NCBI GenBank assembly: GCA_000165345.1 | Contig: CM000435.1 | Coordinates: forward strand, 672,001-736,000 | DNA length: 64,000 nucleotides | Direction: 5' to 3' | Shown here: one piece after another, positions 9,594 through 19,164 of the stretch | Position numbering within the stretch: the first letter of the stretch is position 1 | Layout of the letters: each line of letters starts with the position of its first letter | Notes under the pieces: model-generated | Databases searched by the model: none | What the model saw: only the letters and a program-made list of their open reading frames with translations | What the model was told of the DNA's origin: nothing | Made by a program: the position numbers and the translations under genes

Positions 9594-12500
9594 ATGAGAG
9601 AAATTGCCTTAAATAATATTGAATTAGAAAGACGGCCAAATTGGTGGAGAGGAAGTGAATCTGAAAATATTTTGGACCCATACTTTAAGAAGCCAATTTA
9701 CTCGGGCAAATCTAAGTTTAATTTTTTCCCAAAATTTTTAAAAGACAATATGAAATGGTTTAAAAATAGAATTCCATCAAATAATACTAATGACGATTAT
9801 TCTCAACTTAATGAGTATGATAAGAAGGCTATAATAGAATTTAGCAAACAGCAAAAAATAACTCAGGGACAAGAATCTTCACGATATAAATATATTTCGC
9901 CGTATTCTGAATATCTTTTGGAAAGATTAAAATGGAAGATTGCACTTCGAATTTACTACACACTAGATCCTAATGACAAAGGATATATAGAATTAGAACA
10001 TTCCAAGAAATTATTATTTGAAATGCTGAAGGTCGACACGGAAAAGGCACAAACACTCCTTTTGTTACTTGAAACTATTAAACCTTTCTATGCAAAGGAT
10101 GGATGCGTTGAAAAAAATGATATAATTATTTACTTGGCGAGGGAAATTTTCGATGACACAAGAGGGTATGGGCTTTTTTCAAAACTGAACAACATATTTA
10201 AAAATCCAATTAGTAGATCAAAAAAGCGGAATAATGATTGCTTTATCAATGGTTTTCAAGATGTTTATATGCCAAATAAAAAGCAAATATGTTTTTCTTC
10301 TGATCCAAACGCGATAAAGTTAAATGAAACAAATGTTAAGCAAAGTAATTCAAAAGACACAAATTATAATTGTACTTATTGTCAAAACAAAAATAAAGCT
10401 TGTATAACGTGCAAAATGAAAAAAAATTGCACTGGAAAATTAAGAGATCACATAAAGATCAGTGAAGATAGAAAAAGAAAGTTGATTGAGCGAATTAAAG
10501 AAGAAAAAAAAGAAATTAATGACAAAAATATGCTAGAATGCACATTTAAACCAGAAATTTTATGGCCAATTGGGAAATTTATAAATAAAAATAACAAAAG
10601 TTGGTTAAAGAACAAGAAGAATTTGAAAGGATCAAAGCTACCTCAAGAAAAAAAAAATGAAATATGCGGATATGAAATAATTAATGAGCAGAATATAGAA
10701 GATAAAAATATTCAAGTTTTTTTAAATCAAGGTTACTATTTTGATTCACTTAATAATTGGAATGGATATATACATGATAGTATTACAAATCAAGTTTATG
10801 TTATACATAAGGGATATTTTATGGATGATCACAATGTAGACAAAAATGAAATTTTCTATAGAAAAACAGACAAGGAGGAACAGAAGGAAATTCGGAATAA
10901 AATGCTGGATTCAATCATGAGGAAAATAAATATCGAGTTTCAAACTCTAGAAAATAATGAAAATGGCAATGAGAAAAAAAAATCATTAAATTTTGGAACA
11001 AAGAAATTAGTAGATAAACTTAGAGCTGAAAGAGAAACTGGAACTAATGACCCAAGATTAAATACACCAGAATTTACAATAGAAGTTAATCATCCTGAGT
11101 TCGTTGAGAAAATTGTTGATTTTAGTGAAATTAAGCCTTACAAAAATGTAACAAATCATGAAGATTCTGAAATCAAGAGAGAATATTCAACAAGCCCTTG
11201 TTATTATTATCTTCCAAGAGGATACGAAAGAATAGGTAATTGTTTTAATGAAATCCGGTTTAGGAGAAAACTTGATTTTTTAAAAGATAGTGTACGAGAT
11301 AACCGAAACATTGATACAAATAATAGTTCAAATCTGAAGGTGAAATCAAATTCATTTATAAACAAAGAATTTAATACGAAGAACAGTTCTTTATGTTTAG
11401 ATGAAAAGCCAGCTGGCTTAATCGAAGATACAAAAATGTCGAAAATTTTTAATAAATCAGCAAAAATTGATCCATCATCTCTAAAAGATTTAAATAAAAT
11501 TGTTGGTGCTGGCCAAAGTAAAAATGTTCAAGTTGAAAGTTTAGGAGGGTTAAAAAAAAATAATGGTTTAGATCAACACTTGCTCCTTAAAAGCCCATCA
11601 AAAAATGAGACGAACATAATTGGTTCTCATGTAAATGATGAAAGCGATTTTCAAAAAGGAAGTATTTTAGCTACCAAATTTAAGAAAGAATTAGAAGCTT
11701 CAATTAAAACAAAGAATAGTTTAAAAGTTTCATCAAAGATTGATTCCTCAATACATCTAATAAAAAAAGAAGCTGATACTTCAATTCAAACAAAGAGTAA
11801 CCTTAAAATTCCTCCAATAAAGAAAGAAGCTGATACTTCAATTCAAACAAAGAGCAAACTTAAAATTCCTCCAAAGAAAGATTTGTCAACACCTCCAGTA
11901 AAGAAAGAAGCTGATACTTCAATTCAAACAAAGAGCAACCTTAAAATTCCTCCAAAGAAAGATTTTTCAACACCTCCAATAAAGAAAGAAGCTGATACTT
12001 CAATTCAAACAAAGAGTAACATAAGAATTCCTCCAAAGAAAGATTTTTCAACACCTCCAATAAAGAAAGAAGCTGATACTTCAATTCAAACAAAGAGTAA
12101 CCTTAAAATTCCTCCAGTAAAGAAAGAAGCTGATACTTCAATTCAAACAAAGAGCAACCTTAAAGTTCCTCCAAAGAAAGATTTTTCAACACCTCCAATA
12201 AAGAAAGAAGCTGATACTTTAATTCAAACAAAGAAAAGCCTTGTTATTCCACCAAAGAAAGATTCCTCAGTACCTGTAATGAGCAAAGAAGCTGATACTC
12301 CAATCCCAATAAAGAATAATTTAAAAATTCCATCAAAAATAAATCCTTCGATGCCTCCAATAAAGAGAGTAGTTGTTACTTCGACTCAAGCAATGAACTG
12401 CCTTAAAATTCCACAAATGGAAGCAGCATCAGTACCTCCAATTAAGAAAGAAGTTGATACTTCAATTCAAACAAAAAAAAGCCTTATTATTCCACCAAAG

Positions 12501-13421
12501 AAAGATGCCTCAGTACCTGTAATGAACAAAGAAGCTGATACTTCAATTCAAACAAAGAGCAACCTTAAAATTCCTCCAAAGAAAGATTTGTCAACACCTC
12601 CAGTAAAGAAGGAAGCTGATACTTCAATTCAAACAAAGAGTAACCTTAAAATTCCTCCAAAGAAAGATTTTTCAACACCTCCAGTAAAGAAGGAAACTGA
12701 TACTTCAATTCAAACAAAGAGCAACCTTAAAATTCCTCCAAAGAAAGATTTTTCAACACCTCCAGTAAAGAAGGAAGCTGATACTTCAATTCAAACAAAG
12801 AGCAACCTTAAAATTCCTCCAAAGAAAGATTTTTCAACACCTCCAGTAAAGAAGGAAGCTGATACTTCAATTCAAACAAAGAGCAACCTTAAAATTCCTC
12901 CAAAGAAAGATTTTTCAACACCTCCAGTAAAGAAGGAAGCTGATACTTCAATTCAAACTAAGAGTAACCTTAAAATTCCTCCAAAGAAAGATTTTTCAAC
13001 ACCTCCAATAAAGAAAGAAGCTGATACTTCAATTCAAACAAAGAGCAACCTTAAAATTCCTCCAAAGAAAGATTTTTCAACACCTCCAGTAAATAAGGAA
13101 GCTGATACTTCAATTCAAACAAAGAGTAACCTTAAAATTCCACCAAAGAAAGATTTTTCAACACCTCCAATAAAGAAAGAAGCTGATACTTCAATTCAAA
13201 CAAAGAGTAACCTTAAAATTCCTCCAAAGAAAGATTTTTCAACACCTCCAGTAAAGAAAGAAGCTGATACTTCGATTCAAACAAAGAGTAACATAAGAAT
13301 TCCTCCAAAGAAAGATTTTTCAACACCTCCAATAAAGAAAGAAGCTGATACTTCAATTCAAACAAAGAGTAACCTTAAAATTCCACCAAAGAAAAATGGT
13401 TTAGTAACATCATTAAATTAG
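9594..13421 (+). CDS. Large Lys/Pro/Thr-rich tandem-repeat protein (1275 aa); unique N-terminal approx 700 aa, then about 22 copies of a 27-aa unit
   Basis: ATG verified at 9594. The C-terminal half is built of KKEADTSIQTKSNLKIPPKKDFSTPPV units (81 nt). There is no N-terminal signal peptide. Confidence 0.65.
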   Translation: MREIALNNIELERRPNWWRGSESENILDPYFKKPIYSGKSKFNFFPKFLKDNMKWFKNRIPSNNTNDDYSQLNEYDKKAIIEFSKQQKITQGQESSRYKYISPYSEYLLERLKWKIALRIYYTLDPNDKGYIELEHSKKLLFEMLKVDTEKAQTLLLLLETIKPFYAKDGCVEKNDIIIYLAREIFDDTRGYGLFSKLNNIFKNPISRSKKRNNDCFINGFQDVYMPNKKQICFSSDPNAIKLNETNVKQSNSKDTNYNCTYCQNKNKACITCKMKKNCTGKLRDHIKISEDRKRKLIERIKEEKKEINDKNMLECTFKPEILWPIGKFINKNNKSWLKNKKNLKGSKLPQEKKNEICGYEIINEQNIEDKNIQVFLNQGYYFDSLNNWNGYIHDSITNQVYVIHKGYFMDDHNVDKNEIFYRKTDKEEQKEIRNKMLDSIMRKINIEFQTLENNENGNEKKKSLNFGTKKLVDKLRAERETGTNDPRLNTPEFTIEVNHPEFVEKIVDFSEIKPYKNVTNHEDSEIKREYSTSPCYYYLPRGYERIGNCFNEIRFRRKLDFLKDSVRDNRNIDTNNSSNLKVKSNSFINKEFNTKNSSLCLDEKPAGLIEDTKMSKIFNKSAKIDPSSLKDLNKIVGAGQSKNVQVESLGGLKKNNGLDQHLLLKSPSKNETNIIGSHVNDESDFQKGSILATKFKKELEASIKTKNSLKVSSKIDSSIHLIKKEADTSIQTKSNLKIPPIKKEADTSIQTKSKLKIPPKKDLSTPPVKKEADTSIQTKSNLKIPPKKDFSTPPIKKEADTSIQTKSNIRIPPKKDFSTPPIKKEADTSIQTKSNLKIPPVKKEADTSIQTKSNLKVPPKKDFSTPPIKKEADTLIQTKKSLVIPPKKDSSVPVMSKEADTPIPIKNNLKIPSKINPSMPPIKRVVVTSTQAMNCLKIPQMEAASVPPIKKEVDTSIQTKKSLIIPPKKDASVPVMNKEADTSIQTKSNLKIPPKKDLSTPPVKKEADTSIQTKSNLKIPPKKDFSTPPVKKETDTSIQTKSNLKIPPKKDFSTPPVKKEADTSIQTKSNLKIPPKKDFSTPPVKKEADTSIQTKSNLKIPPKKDFSTPPVKKEADTSIQTKSNLKIPPKKDFSTPPIKKEADTSIQTKSNLKIPPKKDFSTPPVNKEADTSIQTKSNLKIPPKKDFSTPPIKKEADTSIQTKSNLKIPPKKDFSTPPVKKEADTSIQTKSNIRIPPKKDFSTPPIKKEADTSIQTKSNLKIPPKKNGLVTSLN
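11683..13400 (+). repeat. In-frame tandem array of 81-nt units (about 22 copies, some 54-nt short variants). The 3' copies are nearly identical and the central copies are degenerate.
   Basis: Repeats are directly visible in the nucleotide sequence (AAAGAAGCTGATACTTCAATTCAAACAAAGAG(C/T)AACCTTAAAATTCCTCCAAAGAAAGATTTTTCAACACCTCCA...) and in the protein (KKEADTSIQTKSNLKIPPKKDFSTPPV). Confidence 0.85.
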
Positions 13422-14314
13422 GAGGCTAGTAGTCAATTCCCAGGCAGAAATAACATAAAAGTTCACAATAAATTAGCTCAATAATAGATTAAGATAGGAC
13501 ATTAATTACCAATTAAACAATTTTAGACATAAAAACTATTTCTTGAAAATAATTTGGATAATATTTATTGGAATTAGCTTGAATAAAAGTTCGAAAAAAA
13601 TTCAAATATTAATTTCAGAGTAATAACTAGTTAACAATGACTAAAAATAAAGAATTTATTTTTGGGTTTAAAATAATAAATTTATTACCTTTTAGCTTTC
13701 TCGAGGAATGATAATATGTCTTGAAGATCATTACATTAATTCTAAGACGATTATTTCAAACTCAAGAATATTAAGCAAAGGAGACAATGACCACTTTAAT
13801 TGAAAGAATAAAACATATTCAATAGGTAGTTTAATAATTTCCTTTATAGTTAAATCGTAAAAAAATCAATATAATAACGGCCAACTTACAGCGTATTAGA
13901 AATAATCATCTTGGTCTAAATCTAAGATTAAGAAAAGAAGTTGCATTAGAGAATGAATAATTGCTTAAATCATGGAGATAGGAAATAAGGATAAATTCCA
14001 TTTGAAATTGAAGAGAGCTTTTACGAGAAATCGAATTGATGCCATCATATTATTAATAAATTAAGAAATTGTAAGTAAATTTCTTGATTTTATATAAGTT
14101 TATTAAACATGTGAATAAATATGAAAATGCTATGTATTTGAATTCATTTATTTTGCCCGGGGTGATAATTAGTTTTAATAAAAATGTAAAATAAAAAAAT
14201 TTGAAAAGAACAAAAAGGAATTTTTTGCATTCTTTTATTCTTGTTCAACCTATTTAAATATTTATAATTATAGTTATTGATAAGTTCTTATTTATATTTC
14301 CAAGTTTATTAGAA

Positions 14315-14761
14315 ATGCAGGATGAATTTGTTGATCACAAGTTGGAGACGGAATTATTTTCTATTCTATCTCCTGAACTATTAAATGAAATAATGATTGA
14401 GGAATTCCCTCACATAAGACTAGGACCTTCTGTTTCACAGGTTTTAACGACTTTGACAAACGGATTTATTCAAGACGTTGTTAAGAACTCATACATAATT
14501 TCTAAACACAAAAATCACTCCGAAGTCCAAGCTGATGATATACTAGTTTATTTAAGAATGAAATACCCTGATACTAAGCTAGAAGAGTTTTGTGAAACTA
14601 TTTCACAAAGGAAAGAAGGAAGGAGCGGAGCTGGCACTTTAGAAAGTGAGGAGGGCAATGCTGTAAGTAATAGTGGATTACTATCGATTAAATTATTTAA
14701 TACAGAGAGATTTAAAAGTAATTCAAAAATAATCAACAATTTGCGGAATAGTTCAATTTAA
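14315..14761 (+). CDS. Small histone-fold protein, TAF13-like (TFIID subunit 13 / SPT3-N-like)
   Basis: SQVLTTLTNGFIQDVVKNSYIISKHKNHSEVQADDILVYLRMKYPDTKL aligns with TAF13 ...ILEDLVIEFITEMTHKAMSIGRQGRVQVEDIVFLIRKDPRKF, giving a helix-loop-helix-loop-helix histone fold. ATG verified. Confidence 0.5.
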   Translation: MQDEFVDHKLETELFSILSPELLNEIMIEEFPHIRLGPSVSQVLTTLTNGFIQDVVKNSYIISKHKNHSEVQADDILVYLRMKYPDTKLEEFCETISQRKEGRSGAGTLESEEGNAVSNSGLLSIKLFNTERFKSNSKIINNLRNSSI

Positions 14762-14843
14762 GCCTGAAGGCAGATATAAGTTTTAACATTAAAGATAAGC
14801 GGCTCTTTTTATAATAATTACACGAAGTTTAGGAATTTTCAAA

Positions 14844-15860
14844 TTGTTATCAAAAATAGAAGAAAGAAGGATCAGCCAAAGGCTGAAGCAGATCAACATA
14901 GCAAAGAATAGCGTTGGATATCAAAGGTACACAACTGCGGTGAGAAAAAATGAAAGGAAGAGAGAGTTAAGTTTTACTTGGCATCCTTCTACCCCAGATC
15001 CATACTCAAATACAAGTAAATCATGCTTTTCAGGTAGATTAAAAGAATGGAAATTGAGATTACATCTTTGGGGAAATCTTGATGATCTAGAATATAGTAA
15101 TCTAATTCAAAACAACTTAAAATTCCCACCTGGAGCAAATTCAAACCCTTTTAGTAAAGTCAATTATTTTGAAAATATTTTAGATAATGGTAATGACAAT
15201 ACGAATGAGTCATCACTTAAGTTTATTAGGTTCTCTGAACTCAGAATCTCTCCAATTAGTTTTTCCGGACAAAATTCGTTAATCAAAACTAACAGAGGCG
15301 AACGAATTAGCAAATCAGATTCTCTAGTAAATTCGATCAAGTTGTCTAGAAAAATCTTGTTGCCAAAAGTAATGGATTGTGAGAAAAGCCATGATATTAT
15401 GAAATATATCACTCTTTTCATTCCAGATAATTACAAAGGCATGCTGATATGGAAATCAACTAATTTTATACGTCATTGTGATATTATCCTTACAGCACAC
15501 AAACACCGTCTGAAAATCTTAAAGCATGGTTTATCTCTATTCGAATTTAACAAGAGGTATAATATCGATGTTTCTGGGCTAGCACACAACTCAAACAATT
15601 TTCTGAAGGATATTCAAATTAGTATATCCGGTATTGATAGCAACTCTAATAAATTATGCAAATTAAGTGATAAGCCATATAAAAACATCTGTACTCTAAT
15701 AAGTCACCAAAAAATGATTAGTCATTTTTCAAAAAAAGTAGTTTTGACTCAAAACAAGTTATTTGGTTTCAGAGAGCAAGACGTATTCAAGCTGTCTTTT
15801 GCCTATCACCCTTCCTCTATCATTTACTACAAGATCCTAGAAAAGCTACATAAGAGTTAA
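14844..15860 (+). CDS. SLBP: Histone mRNA stem-loop binding protein (SLBP)-like RNA-binding domain protein. The 5' end is unresolved: the open frame has no ATG before the RBD.
   Basis: RLKQINIAKNSVGYQRYTTAVRKNERKRELSFTWHPSTPDPYSNTSKSCFSGRLKEWKLRLHLWGN matches the SLBP RBD ([22 protein letters not shown]...[31 protein letters not shown]). The track start at 14844 is TTG, the frame opens at 14799 after TAA, and the first in-frame ATG is about 175 codons downstream, after the RBD. Confidence 0.6.
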   Translation: MLSKIEERRISQRLKQINIAKNSVGYQRYTTAVRKNERKRELSFTWHPSTPDPYSNTSKSCFSGRLKEWKLRLHLWGNLDDLEYSNLIQNNLKFPPGANSNPFSKVNYFENILDNGNDNTNESSLKFIRFSELRISPISFSGQNSLIKTNRGERISKSDSLVNSIKLSRKILLPKVMDCEKSHDIMKYITLFIPDNYKGMLIWKSTNFIRHCDIILTAHKHRLKILKHGLSLFEFNKRYNIDVSGLAHNSNNFLKDIQISISGIDSNSNKLCKLSDKPYKNICTLISHQKMISHFSKKVVLTQNKLFGFREQDVFKLSFAYHPSSIIYYKILEKLHKS

Positions 15861-16086
15861 TTACACCAGCACCAATTTCTGTGATAGAATATGAATAATC
15901 CTATGCTCAACGTTTCTAATAAAAAGTCATTTGCGGGAATATTTTACGAATATCACAATATGAGGAAACTAATTTACTGGGTGGGGGGACTGAGGGGATC
16001 TTCCAAAACTTCCGGAACTAAGAGTTTTATATTTTTTACACAATTTTTTGAAAATATTTCTGTTTCAATTCTCGGGGTGTTTAATA

Positions 16087-17028
16087 ATGTGTCTAAGCGG
16101 AGAACATTCAGGTGCTGCATTGTACAAAGTAAATTCCAGTTTAAGTAATCGAAAAAACATTATTATTCACCCAATTGTGCTTTTATCAATTGTAGATCAT
16201 TATAATAGGATTGCAAAGGGTACTTCAAAAAGGGTAGTTGGCACATTGCTAGGAGAACTTCATGATGAAGATGGAATTCACGTTACAAATAGTTACGCTT
16301 TACCTTTTGAGGAGGATTCAAGGGACCCAATGGTTTGGTATCTAGATCACAATTATCATGAACAAATGTATTTAATGTTTAAAAAGATCAATACAAAAGA
16401 GAAAATCATTGGTTGGTACAGCACTGGCCCCAAAACCAAGGTTGTTGATATCGATATACATGAGTTATTTAGAAAATATTGCCCTGACCCATTATATTTA
16501 ATTGCTGATGTAACTGCGGATGATTTTGAATATTTGTCAAGTCCAATTAGCGCTTATTTTTCAATGGACGAACCCAATAGTGTCTTAAAGAAAAAGTTTG
16601 CGCATGTTCCATGTACGATTGGCGCATTCGAAGCAGAGGAAGTTGGTGTGGAACACCTATTGAGAGACCTTAAAAATACGTCAACCTCTACTCTTATTAC
16701 GCAAATTTCAGATACAATTAACTCTTGTAAAATACTTGTCTCTAAATTAAAAGAATCCAAAAACTATTTGAATGATATAGTTGAAGGTAGGATACCTCCA
16801 AATCACAGCATTATTTCTGTCCTTCAAGATATTTTTAACTTGCTTCCAGACTTGAGAGAGCCAGAAGCGATTTATGCATTTTCAAATAGGTATGCGGATA
16901 TGATTCTAACAATATATGGGATGAGTTGCTTACGTTCTGTGCTTTCTATGAATGACCTAGTCAATAATGTTTCCGAGAATAGGACAGCCTTTGAAGCGAG
17001 TATGAAAACTTGTAACTCTGATTTATAG
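16087..17028 (+). CDS. RPN8: 26S proteasome regulatory subunit Rpn8 (PSMD7), MPN domain
   Basis: [32 protein letters not shown]...[20 protein letters not shown] is nearly identical in pattern to human PSMD7 ([20 protein letters not shown]...[20 protein letters not shown]). The track start at 16048 is TTG, and the first ATG is 16087. Confidence 0.8.
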   Translation: [313 protein letters not shown]

Positions 17029-17160: not shown

Positions 17161-19164
17161 ATGTCTAGAGAAACGAGTAAGATCAGGTTTTTATCGCTCT
17201 CAAGGAGGTCATGTTTGAATGATGTAGTAAAAAATTTCATCATTCAATGCAGTAGCCATAGTGACCACGAGATAATTGCAAAGTTTGGAGAAATAAAGGG
17301 GTATTATTCCAGAATGAGCATAAATTTACCAGTTGCATGTGACTGTATTCTTGAACATGGCTCAAGCGATTACAAATTTGAAGAAAAAATTGGAAGAAAA
17401 CAGCAAAGCTATTTGATTGAAAGAATTATCCGAGCAAACAGAGAATCATGGCTGGTTGCAGAAAAAGTAGGCATTGATTTATTCTTCGAGGAAAAATATT
17501 CTAATGGAACAGTTTCAATTGATAACAATGGAGATAAGTCTTCATTTTGTGAACTGAACCTTGGCGAAGTCGTCGTTTATAAACCAAAATCTAAAGTTCA
17601 TTTTACTATTACTGGTATTTCAAGGTCAACGATTGATCAACCTAAATCAGATATTCCATTATCTAGATATAAAAAAAGCGTCATTAGCTGGAACTTTCAA
17701 AGAAAGTCTGGCAGTGCATATCCTTTTTGGGATTTAAAGATAATTAACGTAATAAGCTCCTCTGAAAGAAAGCGCAGAAGGGAAGAGCATTATGATATGC
17801 GCAATGACTTGACTGAAGGAAGTTCGCCAGATAGTTATTCGAAGGATGAAAATGACGACGAGGACGAGTATTGGATGGTTGTATTTTCAGGTAATAAGCA
17901 ACTGATATCCAAACATGTTGATTTATATAATAAAGGACAAATAAATGGACTAGATAGAATTACAAATGAGCTTATATATAATTCATCGCTCATAGCAAAA
18001 TATTTGGATGAAGCAATTTCTAGTAATTCTTGTAATATTTATCCCATAAGCTACTATTACCCAAATTTTTTTGGTGATATTACTACTTCAATTAGAGCAC
18101 ACTACAATATGAAAAAAATACAAAATGCTGATTATTCAATCATAGGGGGTTTGAGAAAGTATAATAATGAGGTAAAAAGAGCATTAATAGATCAATATTT
18201 TGAGAGACAATTGAAATATAGACAAAATAGGCATTTAAGCGTATTAGATTTAGCATGTGGGCATGGGCAAGACATACTTAAATTTAAAGGGAAGAAAATA
18301 AGTCGTCTTATCGGGATAGATATTTCTGCAGAAGAAATTTCTGAAGCAAGGCACCGTTTAAAGAGATACGAAAATTCTTTAAACTTCTCCGTTGAGTATC
18401 ATGTTGGGAATCTGCTTTCGAGAACAACATATTCAAAAATTTTGAAAAACTATACATTCGAAATTATTTCGATACAACTATCAATGCATTATATGCTTAT
18501 CAATGAGGAAACATCACTAGAATTTTTGAGGAACATATCAAACTATCTAAAACCTGGTGGGTTTTTTATTGGTTCTACAATTTCATGCGACCATATATTT
18601 TATTCTATGAAACAAAACTCAGTTAAGATAAACCTTAATGAAAACACCGAAGATGCTAACGATTCAAATGGAAACTTAAATAACACAAAATATGTGAGTG
18701 GAAACTCAATTTATAAAATTTCATTTAGTTGTGATGATTGGGATAAATATTTTTCAGACAATATTGATTTGGAGAGAGGAATCAAACTTTTCAGAACTGA
18801 GTGGGGTATTAAGTACGACTTCTGGTTAATTGAGCATATCAATCAATACGAATATGTTGTGCCTTGGGAGTCATTTTGCGGCCTTGCAAGCAAAGTTGGC
18901 CTAGAGCTTGTCCAGTATTCAGATTTTCCAAGTTTCACTGAATTTACACAAAAAAACTTTCCAAATATTAGATTCTCTAACTGGTTAAATAACCCCAAGA
19001 ATTCTGGGTTAATTACCCAACCTGAAAACGAAGTATTTGGTCTTTATTGTGTGTTCGCATTCAAGAAAATTGAAAATAGTAATATTAATTTAGATGAGCA
19101 AGGGATTACATGTGACTTTCAGTTATCTAAAAATTTGACATCCGGCTTTAAAATTAAGAGATAG
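17161..19164 (+). CDS. mRNA cap guanine-N7 methyltransferase (C-terminal half) with an approx 330-aa N-terminal extension
   Basis: AdoMet motif I is VLDLACGHGQDILKF (compare RNMT VLDLGCGKGGDLLKW), and the C-terminal GLYCVFAFKK matches RNMT GIYLVFAFEK. ATG verified. Confidence 0.75.
   Translation: MSRETSKIRFLSLSRRSCLNDVVKNFIIQCSSHSDHEIIAKFGEIKGYYSRMSINLPVACDCILEHGSSDYKFEEKIGRKQQSYLIERIIRANRESWLVAEKVGIDLFFEEKYSNGTVSIDNNGDKSSFCELNLGEVVVYKPKSKVHFTITGISRSTIDQPKSDIPLSRYKKSVISWNFQRKSGSAYPFWDLKIINVISSSERKRRREEHYDMRNDLTEGSSPDSYSKDENDDEDEYWMVVFSGNKQLISKHVDLYNKGQINGLDRITNELIYNSSLIAKYLDEAISSNSCNIYPISYYYPNFFGDITTSIRAHYNMKKIQNADYSIIGGLRKYNNEVKRALIDQYFERQLKYRQNRHLSVLDLACGHGQDILKFKGKKISRLIGIDISAEEISEARHRLKRYENSLNFSVEYHVGNLLSRTTYSKILKNYTFEIISIQLSMHYMLINEETSLEFLRNISNYLKPGGFFIGSTISCDHIFYSMKQNSVKINLNENTEDANDSNGNLNNTKYVSGNSIYKISFSCDDWDKYFSDNIDLERGIKLFRTEWGIKYDFWLIEHINQYEYVVPWESFCGLASKVGLELVQYSDFPSFTEFTQKNFPNIRFSNWLNNPKNSGLITQPENEVFGLYCVFAFKKIENSNINLDEQGITCDFQLSKNLTSGFKIKR

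What the first reader, a model, noticed from the sequence alone, without database searches (positions are those of the whole stretch)
14315..15860. SLBP-like RNA-binding domain ORF has no ATG and sits 82 nt downstream of a histone-fold (TAF13-like) ORF: missing 5' exon or histone-fold/SLBP fusion?
The SLBP RBD (RLKQINIAKNSVGYQRY...HPSTPDPY...LKEWKLRLHLW) is unmistakable. Its open frame runs from a TAA at 14796-14798 with no ATG until about 175 codons in, after the RBD, so the track start is a TTG. The only upstream ATGs lie inside the adjacent histone-fold ORF. Three splice models keep frame: (a) donor GTGAGG at 14646 (phase 1) to acceptor TTTAG|G at 14832, fusing the histone-fold ORF to the RBD and giving about 450 aa; (b) mini-exon ATGCT (14658-14662) plus the perfect donor GTAAGTAAT at 14663, to AG at 14826-14827; (c) the same mini-exon to AG at 14865-14866, giving MLRISQRLKQIN.... 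None uses both a consensus donor and a good acceptor, and the implied introns (165-204 nt) are longer than the 43-78 nt introns seen elsewhere in the window. A protein joining a histone-fold domain to a histone-mRNA-binding domain would be novel. Alternatively a frameshift or assembly error hides the start.
Basis: partly seen in the sequence, partly recalled or inferred. Interest (0 to 1): 0.75.

Follow-up and report, generated by a model that had tools for sequence, protein, structure and literature searches.

The report
ATG-less SLBP gene beside TAF12-like gene
In Cryptosporidium, the gene for the histone-mRNA hairpin-binding protein (SLBP) has no ATG before its RNA-binding domain in nearly every species examined, and it most likely starts at a conserved TTG codon rather than being spliced onto the neighbouring TAF12-like histone-fold gene.

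Summary
The window is Cryptosporidium parvum chromosome 7. ORF 14315-14761 is cgd7_2880, a histone-fold protein that resembles TAF12, not TAF13. The frame 14799-15860 is cgd7_2890, with a clear SLBP RNA-binding domain and no in-frame ATG until 15372.

I compared 13 Cryptosporidium species. All have the same layout, and 12 of 13 lack an ATG before the domain. The frame offset between the two ORFs varies (0, 1 or 2), so a frameshift or assembly error is excluded.

Their ATG or donor sites exist only in C. parvum (and C. hominis), and all three delete a conserved peptide.

No donor or acceptor is conserved in position or phase. None of the usable donors is GTAAGT, which starts 84% of C. parvum introns. 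C. ubiquitum has no usable GT at all. Two RNA-seq-guided re-annotations keep two genes. Public models disagree, with at least seven different structures.

Best explanation (confidence about 0.45): two separate genes, with SLBP translated from a conserved near-cognate start. This is TTG at 14844 in 10 of 13 species and ATA or ATT in the rest. A conserved GC box lies about 40 nt upstream.

Main rival (about 0.27): a TAF12-like/SLBP fusion made through an atypical phase-1 intron. Transcript or proteomic data are needed to decide.

The parts
14315..14761 (+). cgd7_2880: a 148-aa TAF12-like histone-fold protein with its own conserved ATG and stop codon.
   Evidence: ORF listed. 100% identical to EAK90300.1 / XP_628455.1. 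Gene ID. Met1 is invariant in 11 orthologues. All 11 orthologues hit Pfam TFIID_20kDa. The only PDB sequence hits are human TAF12.
14360..14566 (+). Histone-fold region, residues about 16-84.
   Evidence: Aligned to human TAF12 chain 1h3o_B over profile positions 16-84. The AlphaFold2 model shows a helix-loop-long helix-loop-helix pattern at low confidence. The top Foldseek hit is 1h3o_B.
14681..14716 (+). Conserved C-terminal motif LSIKLFNTERFK (F128 and E131 invariant).
   Evidence: Alignment A1. Also present in C. andersoni as QQFNSDRLRK.
14717..14761 (+). Basic tail of the upstream ORF plus its stop codon. The frame stays open 9-22 codons past the motif in every species.
   Evidence: Run-length test against a stop density of 0.089 per codon in the spacers gives P about 0.003 for 7 lineages. 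The tail shares a K/R-K/R-hydrophobic pattern in distant lineages.
14762..14843 (+). 82-nt spacer between the two ORFs, non-coding. Either an intergenic or inter-cistronic region, or (in the rival view) part of an intron.
   Evidence: It contains indels and poorly alignable sequence, and the frame offset varies between species.
14799..14803 (+). Conserved GC box (GCGGC) in an AT-rich spacer, a candidate promoter element resembling the core of an E2F site.
   Evidence: A single GCG[GC] occurs in the spacer of 12 of 13 species, and 37-45 nt upstream of the candidate start in 10 of them. The chance of one in a shuffled spacer is 0.01-0.13. E2F-like motifs are typical of C. parvum promoters and of regions between cistrons.
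14844..14846 (+). TTG, the candidate non-AUG start codon of the SLBP-like protein.
   Evidence: Invariant in 10 of 13 species including C. andersoni, and replaced by ATA or ATT in the other three. A purine at -3 is found in all. An in-frame stop lies 1-6 codons upstream in 9 species, and three of these have no AG between the stop and the TTG. Of 14 invariant-Leu columns in the same species, only 1 keeps a single codon.
14844..15860 (+). cgd7_2890: SLBP-like protein, 338 aa if it starts at the TTG.
14859..15077 (+). SLBP RNA-binding domain, including the HPSTPDP and WKLRLHLWGNL motifs.
   Evidence: Pfam PF15247, residues 21-93 of the frame that opens at 14799. PDB hits 4tux and 4l8r. pN/pS is 0.03-0.27 while pS is 0.43-0.88.
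14718..14859 (+). Rival explanation: candidate phase-1 intron GTAATT...AATAG, 142 nt. The alternative acceptor TTTAG at 14832 gives 115 nt.
   Evidence: Implied by the chipmunk genotype I model and the C. hominis UKH1 model. The donor is not GTAAGT and is not conserved in position.
14663..14668 (+). Perfect GTAAGT inside the upstream ORF (codons Val-Ser). It is probably a chance occurrence.
   Evidence: Present only in C. parvum and C. hominis. No direct in-frame acceptor exists. The public model needs a 28-nt mini-exon that contains a stop codon in chipmunk genotype I.
15372..15374 (+). First in-frame ATG. It is the start of the 162-aa model in the curated IOWA-ATCC and BGF annotations, which leaves the RNA-binding domain outside any CDS.
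   Evidence: The position of the first Met varies from 100 to 294 among species.

Best explanation
There are two separate genes.

cgd7_2880 (14315-14761) is a complete, independently translated TAF12-like histone-fold protein that ends at its own stop codon.

cgd7_2890 is a stand-alone SLBP-family protein. Its reading frame has no AUG upstream of the RNA-binding domain, so translation begins at a conserved near-cognate codon. In C. parvum this is UUG at 14844-14846, in an AAA-UUG context. The product is about 338 aa, with the RNA-binding domain almost at the N-terminus.

The mRNA either starts in the 82-nt spacer, downstream of a conserved GC box (14799) that looks like the core of a C. parvum E2F-type promoter element, or it is the downstream cistron of a TAF12-SLBP dicistronic transcript.

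Shown by the data:
- The RNA-binding domain is translated.
- The absence of an ATG is conserved.
- The TTG and the GC box are conserved.
- There is no conserved or consensus splice site.

Inferred, not shown:
- That ribosomes actually initiate at the UUG.
- Where the transcript starts.
For: 1. The RNA-binding domain is under strong purifying selection, with pN/pS of 0.03-0.27 at near-saturated synonymous divergence. It must therefore be translated. Yet 12 of 13 species have no in-frame ATG before it, and the first Met position varies from 100 to 294.

2. TTG is invariant in 10 of 13 species, including the most distant one, C. andersoni. Xiaoi and ryanae have ATA at or next to that position. 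The Logan species L011 has ATT, although by the conserved TCAAAAAT motif that ATT may sit one codon downstream of the position homologous to the TTG. All have a purine at -3. In the same species, only 1 of 14 invariant-Leu columns keeps one codon, and TTG makes up only 19% of Leu codons.

3. An in-frame stop lies 1-6 codons upstream of that codon in 9 species. In the Logan species L008, C. ubiquitum and C. andersoni there is no AG between the stop and the TTG, so splicing cannot bring the conserved K-L-x-S codons into frame there.

4. The intron alternative fits poorly.
- 84% of C. parvum introns begin with GTAAGT (PMC2483917).
- No GTAAGT-like donor is conserved in the tail of the upstream ORF, and 8 of 13 species have none within one mismatch in its C-terminal third.
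- Candidate donors and acceptors move and change phase between close relatives.
- C. ubiquitum has GC where C. parvum has GT, and no other GT before the stop.

5. The upstream ORF keeps an open, basic tail of 9-22 codons and then a stop in all lineages (P about 0.003). Its relatives outside the genus are short proteins without an SLBP domain, and two of them are named TAF12 in their source records.

6. Two RNA-seq-guided re-annotations, one with manual curation of every gene, keep two genes (models).

7. A single GC box sits 37-45 nt upstream of the candidate start in 10 species from two clades whose spacers are otherwise unalignable. E2F-like motifs mark C. parvum promoters and 160 of 201 regions between cistrons.

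8. Spliced-leader trans-splicing, which could otherwise supply an AUG, was not found in C. parvum.
Against: - No transcript, ribosome-profiling or peptide evidence was available.
- I know of no report of non-AUG initiation in Cryptosporidium, and exclusive non-AUG starts are rare in eukaryotes.
- The prior for an ATG-less ORF lying just downstream of a same-strand ORF favours an unrecognised intron.
- Every species except C. ubiquitum has at least one frame-compatible GT...AG pair, and 10 of 13 have a phase-1 pair.
- Annotators of at least nine species predicted fused models.
- The TTG could instead be conserved as a Leu/Ile codon, or as part of a 3' splice-site region. The codon-invariance baseline is only about 1 in 14.
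- ATGs are not depleted in the spacer overall.
- The GC box does not match the full E2F consensus.
- The first AUG downstream of the UUG is out of frame at +109 in the parvum-to-canis group (+76 to +79 in the others), so UUG initiation would be inefficient.
Confidence: 0.45

Rival explanations
1. TAF12-like/SLBP fusion made by splicing. A phase-1 intron runs from a donor in the tail of the upstream ORF to an acceptor just before ERRISQ. In C. parvum the donor is A|GTAATT at 14718 and the acceptor is AATAG| at 14859 or TTTAG| at 14832. The ATG at 14315 then initiates a protein of about 467-476 aa that joins a histone fold to an SLBP RNA-binding domain. An unspliced isoform that yields the 148-aa protein alone could exist alongside it.
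For: - The two ORFs lie on the same strand, 82-290 nt apart, in all 13 species, and the downstream one has no ATG.
- Frame-compatible GT...AG pairs exist in 12 of 13 species.
- 10 of 13 species have a phase-1 donor (mostly A|GT) together with a phase-1 acceptor.
- The acceptor position 14 nt before the Ser codon is shared by the parvum group and the distant Logan species L011, and arguably by C. andersoni.
- Fused models have been deposited for C. hominis, chipmunk genotype I, C. ubiquitum, C. canis, C. felis, C. xiaoi, C. bovis, C. andersoni, C. muris and C. serpentis.
- Intron lengths of 111-300 nt are within range for the genus, where the mean is 84-99 nt.
Against: - None of the usable donors is GTAAGT, although 84% of C. 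parvum introns start with it.
- The donor position differs in almost every lineage, and the phase differs in L009 and C. ryanae. C. ubiquitum has no GT.
- With this many GT and AG dinucleotides, a compatible pair is expected by chance.
- The deposited models contradict each other. Three C. canis isolates have three different junctions.
- Two RNA-seq-guided annotations did not merge the genes.
- In xiaoi and ryanae the only available donor would remove the conserved tail.
- A conserved GC box at fixed spacing is unusual inside an intron.
Confidence: 0.27
2. Downstream cistron of a dicistronic mRNA. The TAF12-like ORF and the SLBP ORF are transcribed together. After terminating at 14759-14761, ribosomes resume scanning the AUG-free 82-nt spacer and reinitiate at the UUG. 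This is a variant of the best explanation and differs only in how ribosomes reach the UUG.
For: - About 10% of C. parvum genes lie in polycistronic transcripts with short regions between cistrons, and those regions carry E2F-like motifs.
- The C. parvum spacer contains no ATG.
- The upstream ORF is short, at 148 codons.
Against: - It is not known whether this gene pair is among the 201 polycistrons, because the supplementary tables were not available.
- From general knowledge, reinitiation after a 148-codon ORF, and at a non-AUG codon, is expected to be very inefficient.
- Spacers in several other species do contain ATGs.
Confidence: 0.1
3. A different, unrecognised ATG-bearing 5' exon, or one of the reader's mini-exon models or the public 467-aa two-intron model, supplies the start.
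For: - C. parvum has ATGCT followed by a perfect GTAAGTAAT at 14658-14671.
- A 467-aa two-intron model that uses the GTAAGT at 14663 and a 28-nt mini-exon has been deposited for C. parvum, C. hominis and isolate 43IA8.
- Another GTAAGT lies at 14071, upstream of the first ORF.
Against: - The ATG at 14658 is absent in C. hominis and in all other species.
- The GTAAGT at 14663 is limited to C. parvum and C. hominis.
- The mini-exon contains a stop codon in chipmunk genotype I.
- All of these models delete the conserved FNTERFK motif.
- No ATG-bearing exon conserved across species was seen in the spacer.
Confidence: 0.08
4. Sequencing or assembly error, or a pseudogene: the true start is hidden by an indel, or the RNA-binding-domain ORF is not expressed.
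For: The original GenBank entry is flagged 'partial'.
Against: - The same ATG-less structure occurs in 13 independently sequenced species, with frame offsets of 0, 1 and 2.
- The RNA-binding domain and the 250-aa C-terminal region stay open and are under purifying selection.
Confidence: 0.02

Closest known systems
Metazoan SLBP / histone RNA hairpin-binding protein (human SLBP in PDB 4L8R and 4QOZ; Drosophila SLBP in 4TUX)
   Same: The RNA-binding domain matches Pfam PF15247 at 83.9 bits. It aligns with the solved domains over about 68 residues, including the RxKQI-x-GKN, HPxTP and W-x-x-x-LH-x-W motifs.
   Different: - The domain sits at, or within about 10 residues of, the N-terminus, or after a histone-fold domain if the proteins are fused.
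- It carries a 5-residue insertion before HPSTP.
- It is followed by a genus-specific region of about 250 aa with no recognisable fold (mean pLDDT 38).
- The gene has no AUG before the domain.
- Binding to histone mRNA was not tested.
TAF12 (TFIID 20-kDa subunit; histone-fold partner of TAF4 and ADA1; PDB 1H3O chain B)
   Same: TAF12 is the best Pfam match for all 11 orthologues and the only source of PDB sequence hits. The alignment covers the whole histone fold, including the KH(K/R)xxxxxxxxD motif. Remote relatives are short proteins without an SLBP domain, and two of them (spider proteins) are named TAF12 in their source records.
   Different: - The score is below Pfam's gathering cut-off (24.4 against 27 bits).
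- The protein has an extra conserved C-terminal helix or motif (FNTERFK) and a basic tail.
- The structural model is of low confidence.
- No partner protein or complex membership was tested.
Eukaryotic genes that initiate only at near-cognate codons, for example the GUG start of vertebrate EIF4G2/DAP5 (cited from my own knowledge, not checked here)
   Same: A conserved near-cognate codon in a favourable context (purine at -3), no upstream in-frame AUG, and conservation of the non-AUG state across a whole clade.
   Different: - Initiation here is inferred from sequence only.
- The codon is UUG, AUA or AUU rather than the more efficient CUG or GUG.
- I know of no precedent in Cryptosporidium or in the SLBP family.
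C. parvum polycistronic transcripts (Xiao et al. 2025, bioRxiv 10.1101/2025.01.17.633476)
   Same: Same-strand neighbouring genes of unrelated function, a very short spacer, and a GC-core motif resembling an E2F site in that spacer.
   Different: - It is not known whether cgd7_2880 and cgd7_2890 are among the 201 polycistrons.
- Downstream cistrons in that study were reported to have Kozak-like AUG starts, whereas this one has no AUG.
Deposited fused gene models (for example XP_067200252.1 chipmunk genotype I, OLQ17956.1 C. hominis UKH1, XP_002139630.1 C. muris)
   Different: They are computational models that disagree on the junction. None is backed by evidence I could find. The curated C. 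parvum annotations keep two genes instead.

Membership tests
SLBP family (Pfam PF15247, SLBP_RNA_bind) | RNA-binding domain matches the family HMM above the curated cut-off. | tested here: met
   83.9 bits against a cut-off of 27, E=8.1e-24. All orthologues carry PF15247.
SLBP family (Pfam PF15247, SLBP_RNA_bind) | Sequence similarity to experimentally solved SLBP RNA-binding domains, including the HPxTP motif. | tested here: met
   4tux_A at E=2.5e-9 and 4l8r_C at E=1.3e-7. HPSTPDP aligns with HPRTPNK.
SLBP family (Pfam PF15247, SLBP_RNA_bind) | Binds the 3' stem-loop of histone mRNAs, and such stem-loops are present on the organism's histone genes. | not tested
   Rfam, which includes the histone 3' stem-loop family, found nothing in the window, but I did not identify any histone gene there. 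Binding cannot be tested with these tools.
TAF12 (Pfam PF03847, TFIID_20kDa) | Histone-fold domain matches the family HMM above the curated cut-off. | tested here: not met
   24.4 bits against a cut-off of 27 (E=4.4e-5). However, all 11 orthologues hit this family at E<=0.01 and it is the top family for each.
TAF12 (Pfam PF03847, TFIID_20kDa) | Histone fold (helix-loop-long helix-loop-helix) closest to TAF12 among solved structures. | tested here: inconclusive
   A profile search of the PDB returns only human TAF12 (E=0.006 and 0.017). The AlphaFold2 model has a mean pLDDT of 55. The top Foldseek hit is 1h3o_B at E=0.027, followed by H3 histones.
TAF12 (Pfam PF03847, TFIID_20kDa) | Pairs with TAF4 or ADA1 and is a subunit of TFIID or SAGA. 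| not testable with these tools
   No interaction data are available.
   13.7 bits against a cut-off of 27, E=0.064. No orthologue reaches E<=0.01.
Cryptosporidium spliceosomal intron joining the two ORFs | GT...AG boundaries that keep the reading frame without introducing stops. | tested here: met
   Frame-compatible pairs exist in 12 of 13 species, but none exists near the end of the upstream ORF in C. ubiquitum. Given the number of GT and AG dinucleotides, this is expected by chance.
Cryptosporidium spliceosomal intron joining the two ORFs | Strong 5' splice-site consensus GTAAGT (84% of C. parvum introns; PMC2483917). | tested here: not met
   Usable donors are GTAATT, GTAAAG, GTAAAA, GTGAAA, GTAAGG, GTAGAT, GTATTA and GTATTC. 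The only GTAAGT (14663) is confined to C. parvum and C. hominis and has no direct in-frame acceptor.
Cryptosporidium spliceosomal intron joining the two ORFs | Intron position and phase conserved among orthologues. | tested here: not met
   The donor moves in nearly every lineage. The phase is 0 in L009 and C. ryanae and 1 elsewhere. The acceptor TAG becomes TTG or TCG in L009 and L010.
Cryptosporidium spliceosomal intron joining the two ORFs | Spliced junction seen in transcripts. | not testable with these tools
   No transcript data could be reached. Indirectly, two RNA-seq-guided annotations keep two genes, and no spliced ORF appeared among the database proteins.
Non-AUG-initiated eukaryotic ORF | A conserved, translated domain with no in-frame AUG upstream in any orthologue. 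| tested here: met
   12 of 13 species have no such ATG. The only exception, C. ryanae, has ATGs inside T-rich, low-complexity sequence.
Non-AUG-initiated eukaryotic ORF | A conserved near-cognate codon in a favourable context, bounded upstream by an in-frame stop. | tested here: met
   TTG in 10 species and ATA or ATT in 3 (in L011 the ATT may be offset by one codon from the TTG position), a purine at -3 in 13 of 13, and a stop 1-6 codons upstream in 9.
Non-AUG-initiated eukaryotic ORF | Direct evidence of initiation, such as ribosome profiling with initiation inhibitors, an N-terminal peptide, or mutagenesis. | not testable with these tools
   None available.
C. parvum polycistronic transcript | Same-strand neighbours with a short region between cistrons that carries an E2F-like motif. 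| tested here: inconclusive
   The spacer is 82 nt and has a conserved GCGGC or GGCGG box, but the full E2F consensus (TTTGGCGGGAA or TTGSCGCC) is not matched.
C. parvum polycistronic transcript | Single long reads that span both ORFs. | not testable with these tools
   The supplementary table listing the 201 polycistrons was not available.

The most novel reading that the evidence does not exclude
A real fusion protein that joins a TAF12-type histone fold to an SLBP histone-mRNA-binding domain. It would be produced in all Cryptosporidium species through an atypical, non-GTAAGT, phase-1 intron whose donor has drifted along a flexible linker. An intron-retaining isoform that gives the free 148-aa histone-fold protein might exist alongside it. 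Such a protein would physically link a histone-like or TFIID/SAGA module to histone-mRNA metabolism.
Probability: 0.25. Interest if true: 0.7.

Novelty: new variant of a known kind. Interest (0 to 1): 0.5.

Why it matters
SLBP is the central factor for processing, translation and turnover of replication-dependent histone mRNAs. In Cryptosporidium its RNA-binding domain is strongly conserved, yet the public record has no consistent way of expressing it. The best-curated C. parvum annotations start the gene at an internal ATG and leave the domain outside any CDS, while other annotations invent mutually incompatible introns.

If the conserved UUG start is real, it would be the first genus-wide obligate non-AUG start that I am aware of in Cryptosporidium. 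It would point to translational control of histone-mRNA metabolism in a parasite that relies on E2F-type cell-cycle promoters. It would also show that ATG-only gene callers and curation rules lose real proteins in this genome.

If the fusion is real instead, it is an unprecedented domain architecture. In either case the locus needs a corrected gene model, and one simple experiment can decide between the two.

Tried and rejected
Rejected by comparison with 12 other species. The sites are not conserved and a conserved motif would be deleted.
- Public 467-aa two-intron model. Rejected as a conserved solution for the same reasons, and because its mini-exon contains a stop codon in chipmunk genotype I.
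- Frameshift, assembly error or pseudogene. Rejected.
- Search for a species with one continuous ORF, or with an ordinary ATG start. None was found among the 13 loci. C. ryanae's ATGs lie in T-rich, low-complexity sequence.
- Search for spliced transcripts among database proteins. Only stop-to-stop or TTG-called ORFs appeared in Logan contigs. The word-index search is leaky: one search missed known fused models. This absence is therefore weak evidence.
- Two scans of JGI metagenome contigs for Cryptosporidium DNA or transcripts. The first found nothing and the second gave only two chance bacterial matches.
- ATG depletion in the spacer as a signature of a 5' leader. Not significant.
- Literature search for the gene IDs, for SLBP in Cryptosporidium, and for non-AUG starts. 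Nothing specific was found. Davila Lopez & Samuelsson 2008 was not available. Supplementary tables of the polycistron paper were not available.
- Structure prediction of the SLBP-like protein. Too low in confidence (mean pLDDT 38) to identify the C-terminal region, so no fold search was run on it.
- Hairpin at 14872-14886. It pairs in 98.5% of cells, but varies too little to be significant (88 of 500 shuffles reach the observed value).
- Rfam scan of the window. No hits.


Full report
**What is in the sequence**

Every coordinate in the finding is correct.
- An ATG-initiated ORF runs from 14315 to 14761 (148 aa).
- A TAA at 14796-14798 opens a frame that runs to 15860.
- The first ATG/GTG/TTG in that frame is TTG at 14844, 82 nt after the upstream stop.
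- The first in-frame ATG is at 15372, downstream of the RNA-binding domain.

The downstream frame carries a clear SLBP RNA-binding domain. Pfam PF15247 scores E=8.1e-24, 83.9 bits against a cut-off of 27. It also aligns with the solved Drosophila and human SLBP domains.

The upstream ORF is a histone-fold protein, but its best and only consistent family is TAF12. All 11 orthologues hit PF03847 at E<=0.01, and the C. parvum score of 24.4 bits is just under the cut-off of 27. The only PDB sequence hits are human TAF12. TAF13 scores E=0.064.

**Where it comes from, and what the databases say**

The window is Cryptosporidium parvum Iowa II chromosome 7. The two ORFs are cgd7_2880 (EAK90300.1, 148 aa) and cgd7_2890 (EAK90626.1, 'SLBP family of RNA binding proteins, partial', 353 aa). 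The 353-aa entry is simply the stop-to-stop frame.

The public record disagrees with itself:
- a 353-aa 'partial' protein;
- a 162-aa protein starting at the internal ATG, in the manually curated IOWA-ATCC and BGF annotations, which leaves the RNA-binding domain outside any CDS;
- a 467-aa two-intron fusion with a 28-nt mini-exon;
- a 476-aa one-intron fusion (C. hominis UKH1);
- fusions with other junctions in chipmunk genotype I, C. ubiquitum, C. felis, C. xiaoi, C. bovis, C. andersoni, C. muris and C. serpentis;
- three different junctions in three C. canis isolates;
- unfused models in C. ryanae, C. tyzzeri and C. meleagridis.

The gene structure is unresolved.

**Comparative data**

I retrieved the locus from 12 further Cryptosporidium species, including the distant gastric species C. 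andersoni and four unnamed species from Logan assemblies. All 13 show the following:
- The TAF12-like ORF (142-148 aa) has an invariant Met1. It lies directly upstream of the SLBP frame on the same strand.
- The SLBP frame has no ATG before the RNA-binding domain. The only exception is C. ryanae, where the ATGs lie in T-rich, low-complexity sequence.
- The first Met falls anywhere from residue 100 to 294.
- The frame offset between the two ORFs is 0, 1 or 2 depending on species, and the spacer has indels. This rules out a frameshift or assembly error.
- The RNA-binding domain is under strong purifying selection, with pN/pS of 0.03-0.27 and pS of 0.43-0.88. It is translated. The question is how.

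- The ATG at 14658, needed for models (b) and (c), is AAC-GCT in C. hominis and absent elsewhere.
- GTGAGG at 14646 and GTAAGT at 14663 exist only in C. parvum and C. hominis.
- All three models, and the public 467-aa model, delete the peptide LLSIKLFNTERFK. This peptide is conserved as protein in all 13 species, with F128 and E131 invariant.

**Is there any intron?**

A fourth model is implied by the chipmunk and UKH1 annotations: donor A|GTAATT at 14718, and acceptor AATAG| at 14859 or TTTAG| at 14832 (phase 1, 142 or 115 nt). It keeps the conserved motif. Twelve of 13 species have some frame-compatible GT...AG pair. Several points count against a real conserved intron:
- Irimia & Roy report that 84% of Cryptosporidium introns start with GTAAGT (PMC2483917). 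None of the usable donors in any species is GTAAGT, and 8 of 13 species have nothing within one mismatch in the C-terminal third of the upstream ORF.
- The donor sits at a different place in almost every lineage. The phase is 0 in two species and 1 in the others. The C. parvum acceptor TAG is TTG or TCG in two close relatives. C. ubiquitum has GC where C. parvum has GT, and no other GT before the stop.
- The tail and the purine-rich head contain many GT and AG dinucleotides, so a compatible pair is expected by chance.
- Downstream of the conserved motif, the upstream ORF stays open for 9-22 further codons and then stops in every lineage. This is unlikely for intron sequence, given 0.089 stops per codon (P about 0.003 for 7 lineages). 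The tail also keeps a basic-hydrophobic pattern in distant lineages.
- Two RNA-seq-guided re-annotations, one with manual curation of all genes, kept two genes.
- Trans-splicing was not detected in C. parvum.

**A positive alternative**

In the SLBP frame, the codon TTG at 14844 is invariant in 10 of 13 species, including C. andersoni.
- It is replaced by ATA in xiaoi and ryanae, and by ATT in a Logan species (L011). In L011, judging by the conserved TCAAAAAT motif, the ATT may sit one codon downstream of the position homologous to the TTG.
- All three codons are near-cognate start codons, and all have a purine at -3.
- In the same 10 species, only 1 of 14 invariant-Leu columns keeps one codon, and TTG makes up only 19% of Leu codons.
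- An in-frame stop lies 1-6 codons upstream in 9 species.
- In three species (TAA TTC AAA TTG in two of them, TAA TCG AAA TTG in C. andersoni) there is no AG between the stop and the TTG. Splicing therefore cannot bring the conserved K-L-x-S codons into frame there.

The spacer also holds a single GC box (GCGGC, GGCGG or GCGC) in 12 of 13 species. It lies 37-45 nt upstream of this codon in 10 of them, across two clades whose spacers are otherwise unalignable. The chance of one such box per shuffled spacer is 0.01-0.13. GC-core motifs resembling E2F sites, together with poly-T, are the hallmark of C. parvum promoters. They occur in 160 of 201 regions between cistrons in polycistronic transcripts. 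The match to the full E2F consensus is only partial.

**Conclusion and weights**

- Best-supported reading (about 0.45): two genes. One is an independent TAF12-like protein. The other is a stand-alone SLBP-like protein of about 338 aa, initiated at the conserved UUG and transcribed from a promoter in the spacer.
- Mechanistic variant (about 0.1): the same UUG start, reached from a dicistronic mRNA.
- Main rival (about 0.27): a TAF12-like/SLBP fusion through an atypical phase-1 intron, 14718 to 14859 or 14832.
- Other upstream exons: about 0.08.
- Sequencing error or pseudogene: about 0.02.

The weak points of the preferred reading are the complete lack of direct evidence for initiation, the rarity of exclusive non-AUG starts, the modest statistical weight of the TTG invariance, and the absence of ATG depletion in the spacer.

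**Comparison with known systems**

The RNA-binding domain is a clear member of the SLBP family, but binding to histone mRNA was not tested. The upstream protein works like, and probably is, a divergent TAF12, although it scores below Pfam's cut-off. Outside the genus its relatives are short proteins without an SLBP domain, and two of them are named TAF12 in their source records. Clade-wide conservation of a non-AUG start has precedents elsewhere, such as EIF4G2 (from my own knowledge). I know of none in Cryptosporidium or for SLBP.

**Scores**

I rate this as a new variant of a known kind, with interest 0.5. It is a real, conserved and unresolved anomaly with a clear and cheap decisive experiment, but the proposed mechanism is still an inference.

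Noticed in passing
window 14872-14886: TCAGCCAAAGGCTGA, which encodes I-S-Q-R-L at the start of the RNA-binding domain, can form a 6-bp hairpin. The block, including its wobble positions and the minority codons AGG and CTG, is invariant in 10 of 12 species even though synonymous sites elsewhere in the domain are near saturation. C. andersoni shows one compensatory pair change. There is too little variation for significance.
   Followed up: partly
window 14315-14393: The BGF annotation (WRK33461.1) starts the TAF12-like protein at Met27 (122 aa). However, Met1 and the first 26 residues are conserved in all 11 orthologues, so the 148-aa form is more likely to be correct.
   Followed up: partly
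window 9594-13421 (+): A 1275-aa ORF whose C-terminal two-thirds is a long array of repeats of about 28 residues (KKEADTSIQTKSNLKIPPKKDFSTPPV). The orthologous upstream genes in other species have no Pfam hit.
   Followed up: no
window 17161-19164 (+): A 667-aa protein with a strong mRNA cap guanine-N7 methyltransferase domain (E=7.9e-49). It also has a weak N-terminal match, below the Pfam cut-off, to the RNA triphosphatase beta family (PF02940, E=4e-4, residues 28-129). This may be a triphosphatase-methyltransferase fusion.
   Followed up: no
window 16048-17028 (+): A proteasome/eIF3-type MPN (JAB plus MitMem_reg) gene. The ORF finder's TTG start gives 326 aa. Orthologue models are 313 aa, which corresponds to the ATG at 16087.
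   Followed up: partly
window 14071-14076: A perfect GTAAGT lies 244 nt upstream of the TAF12-like ATG, in C. parvum and C. hominis only. It could be a 5'-UTR intron donor or a chance occurrence.
   Followed up: no
window 15100-15857 (+); alignment A2/A4: The roughly 250 aa after the RNA-binding domain contain genus-wide invariant motifs (ISPI, TLFIP(D/E)xYRGxQxWKSxNFIRxCD) but match no Pfam family. AlphaFold2 confidence is very low (mean pLDDT 38). This appears to be a Cryptosporidium-specific SLBP extension of unknown fold.
   Followed up: partly
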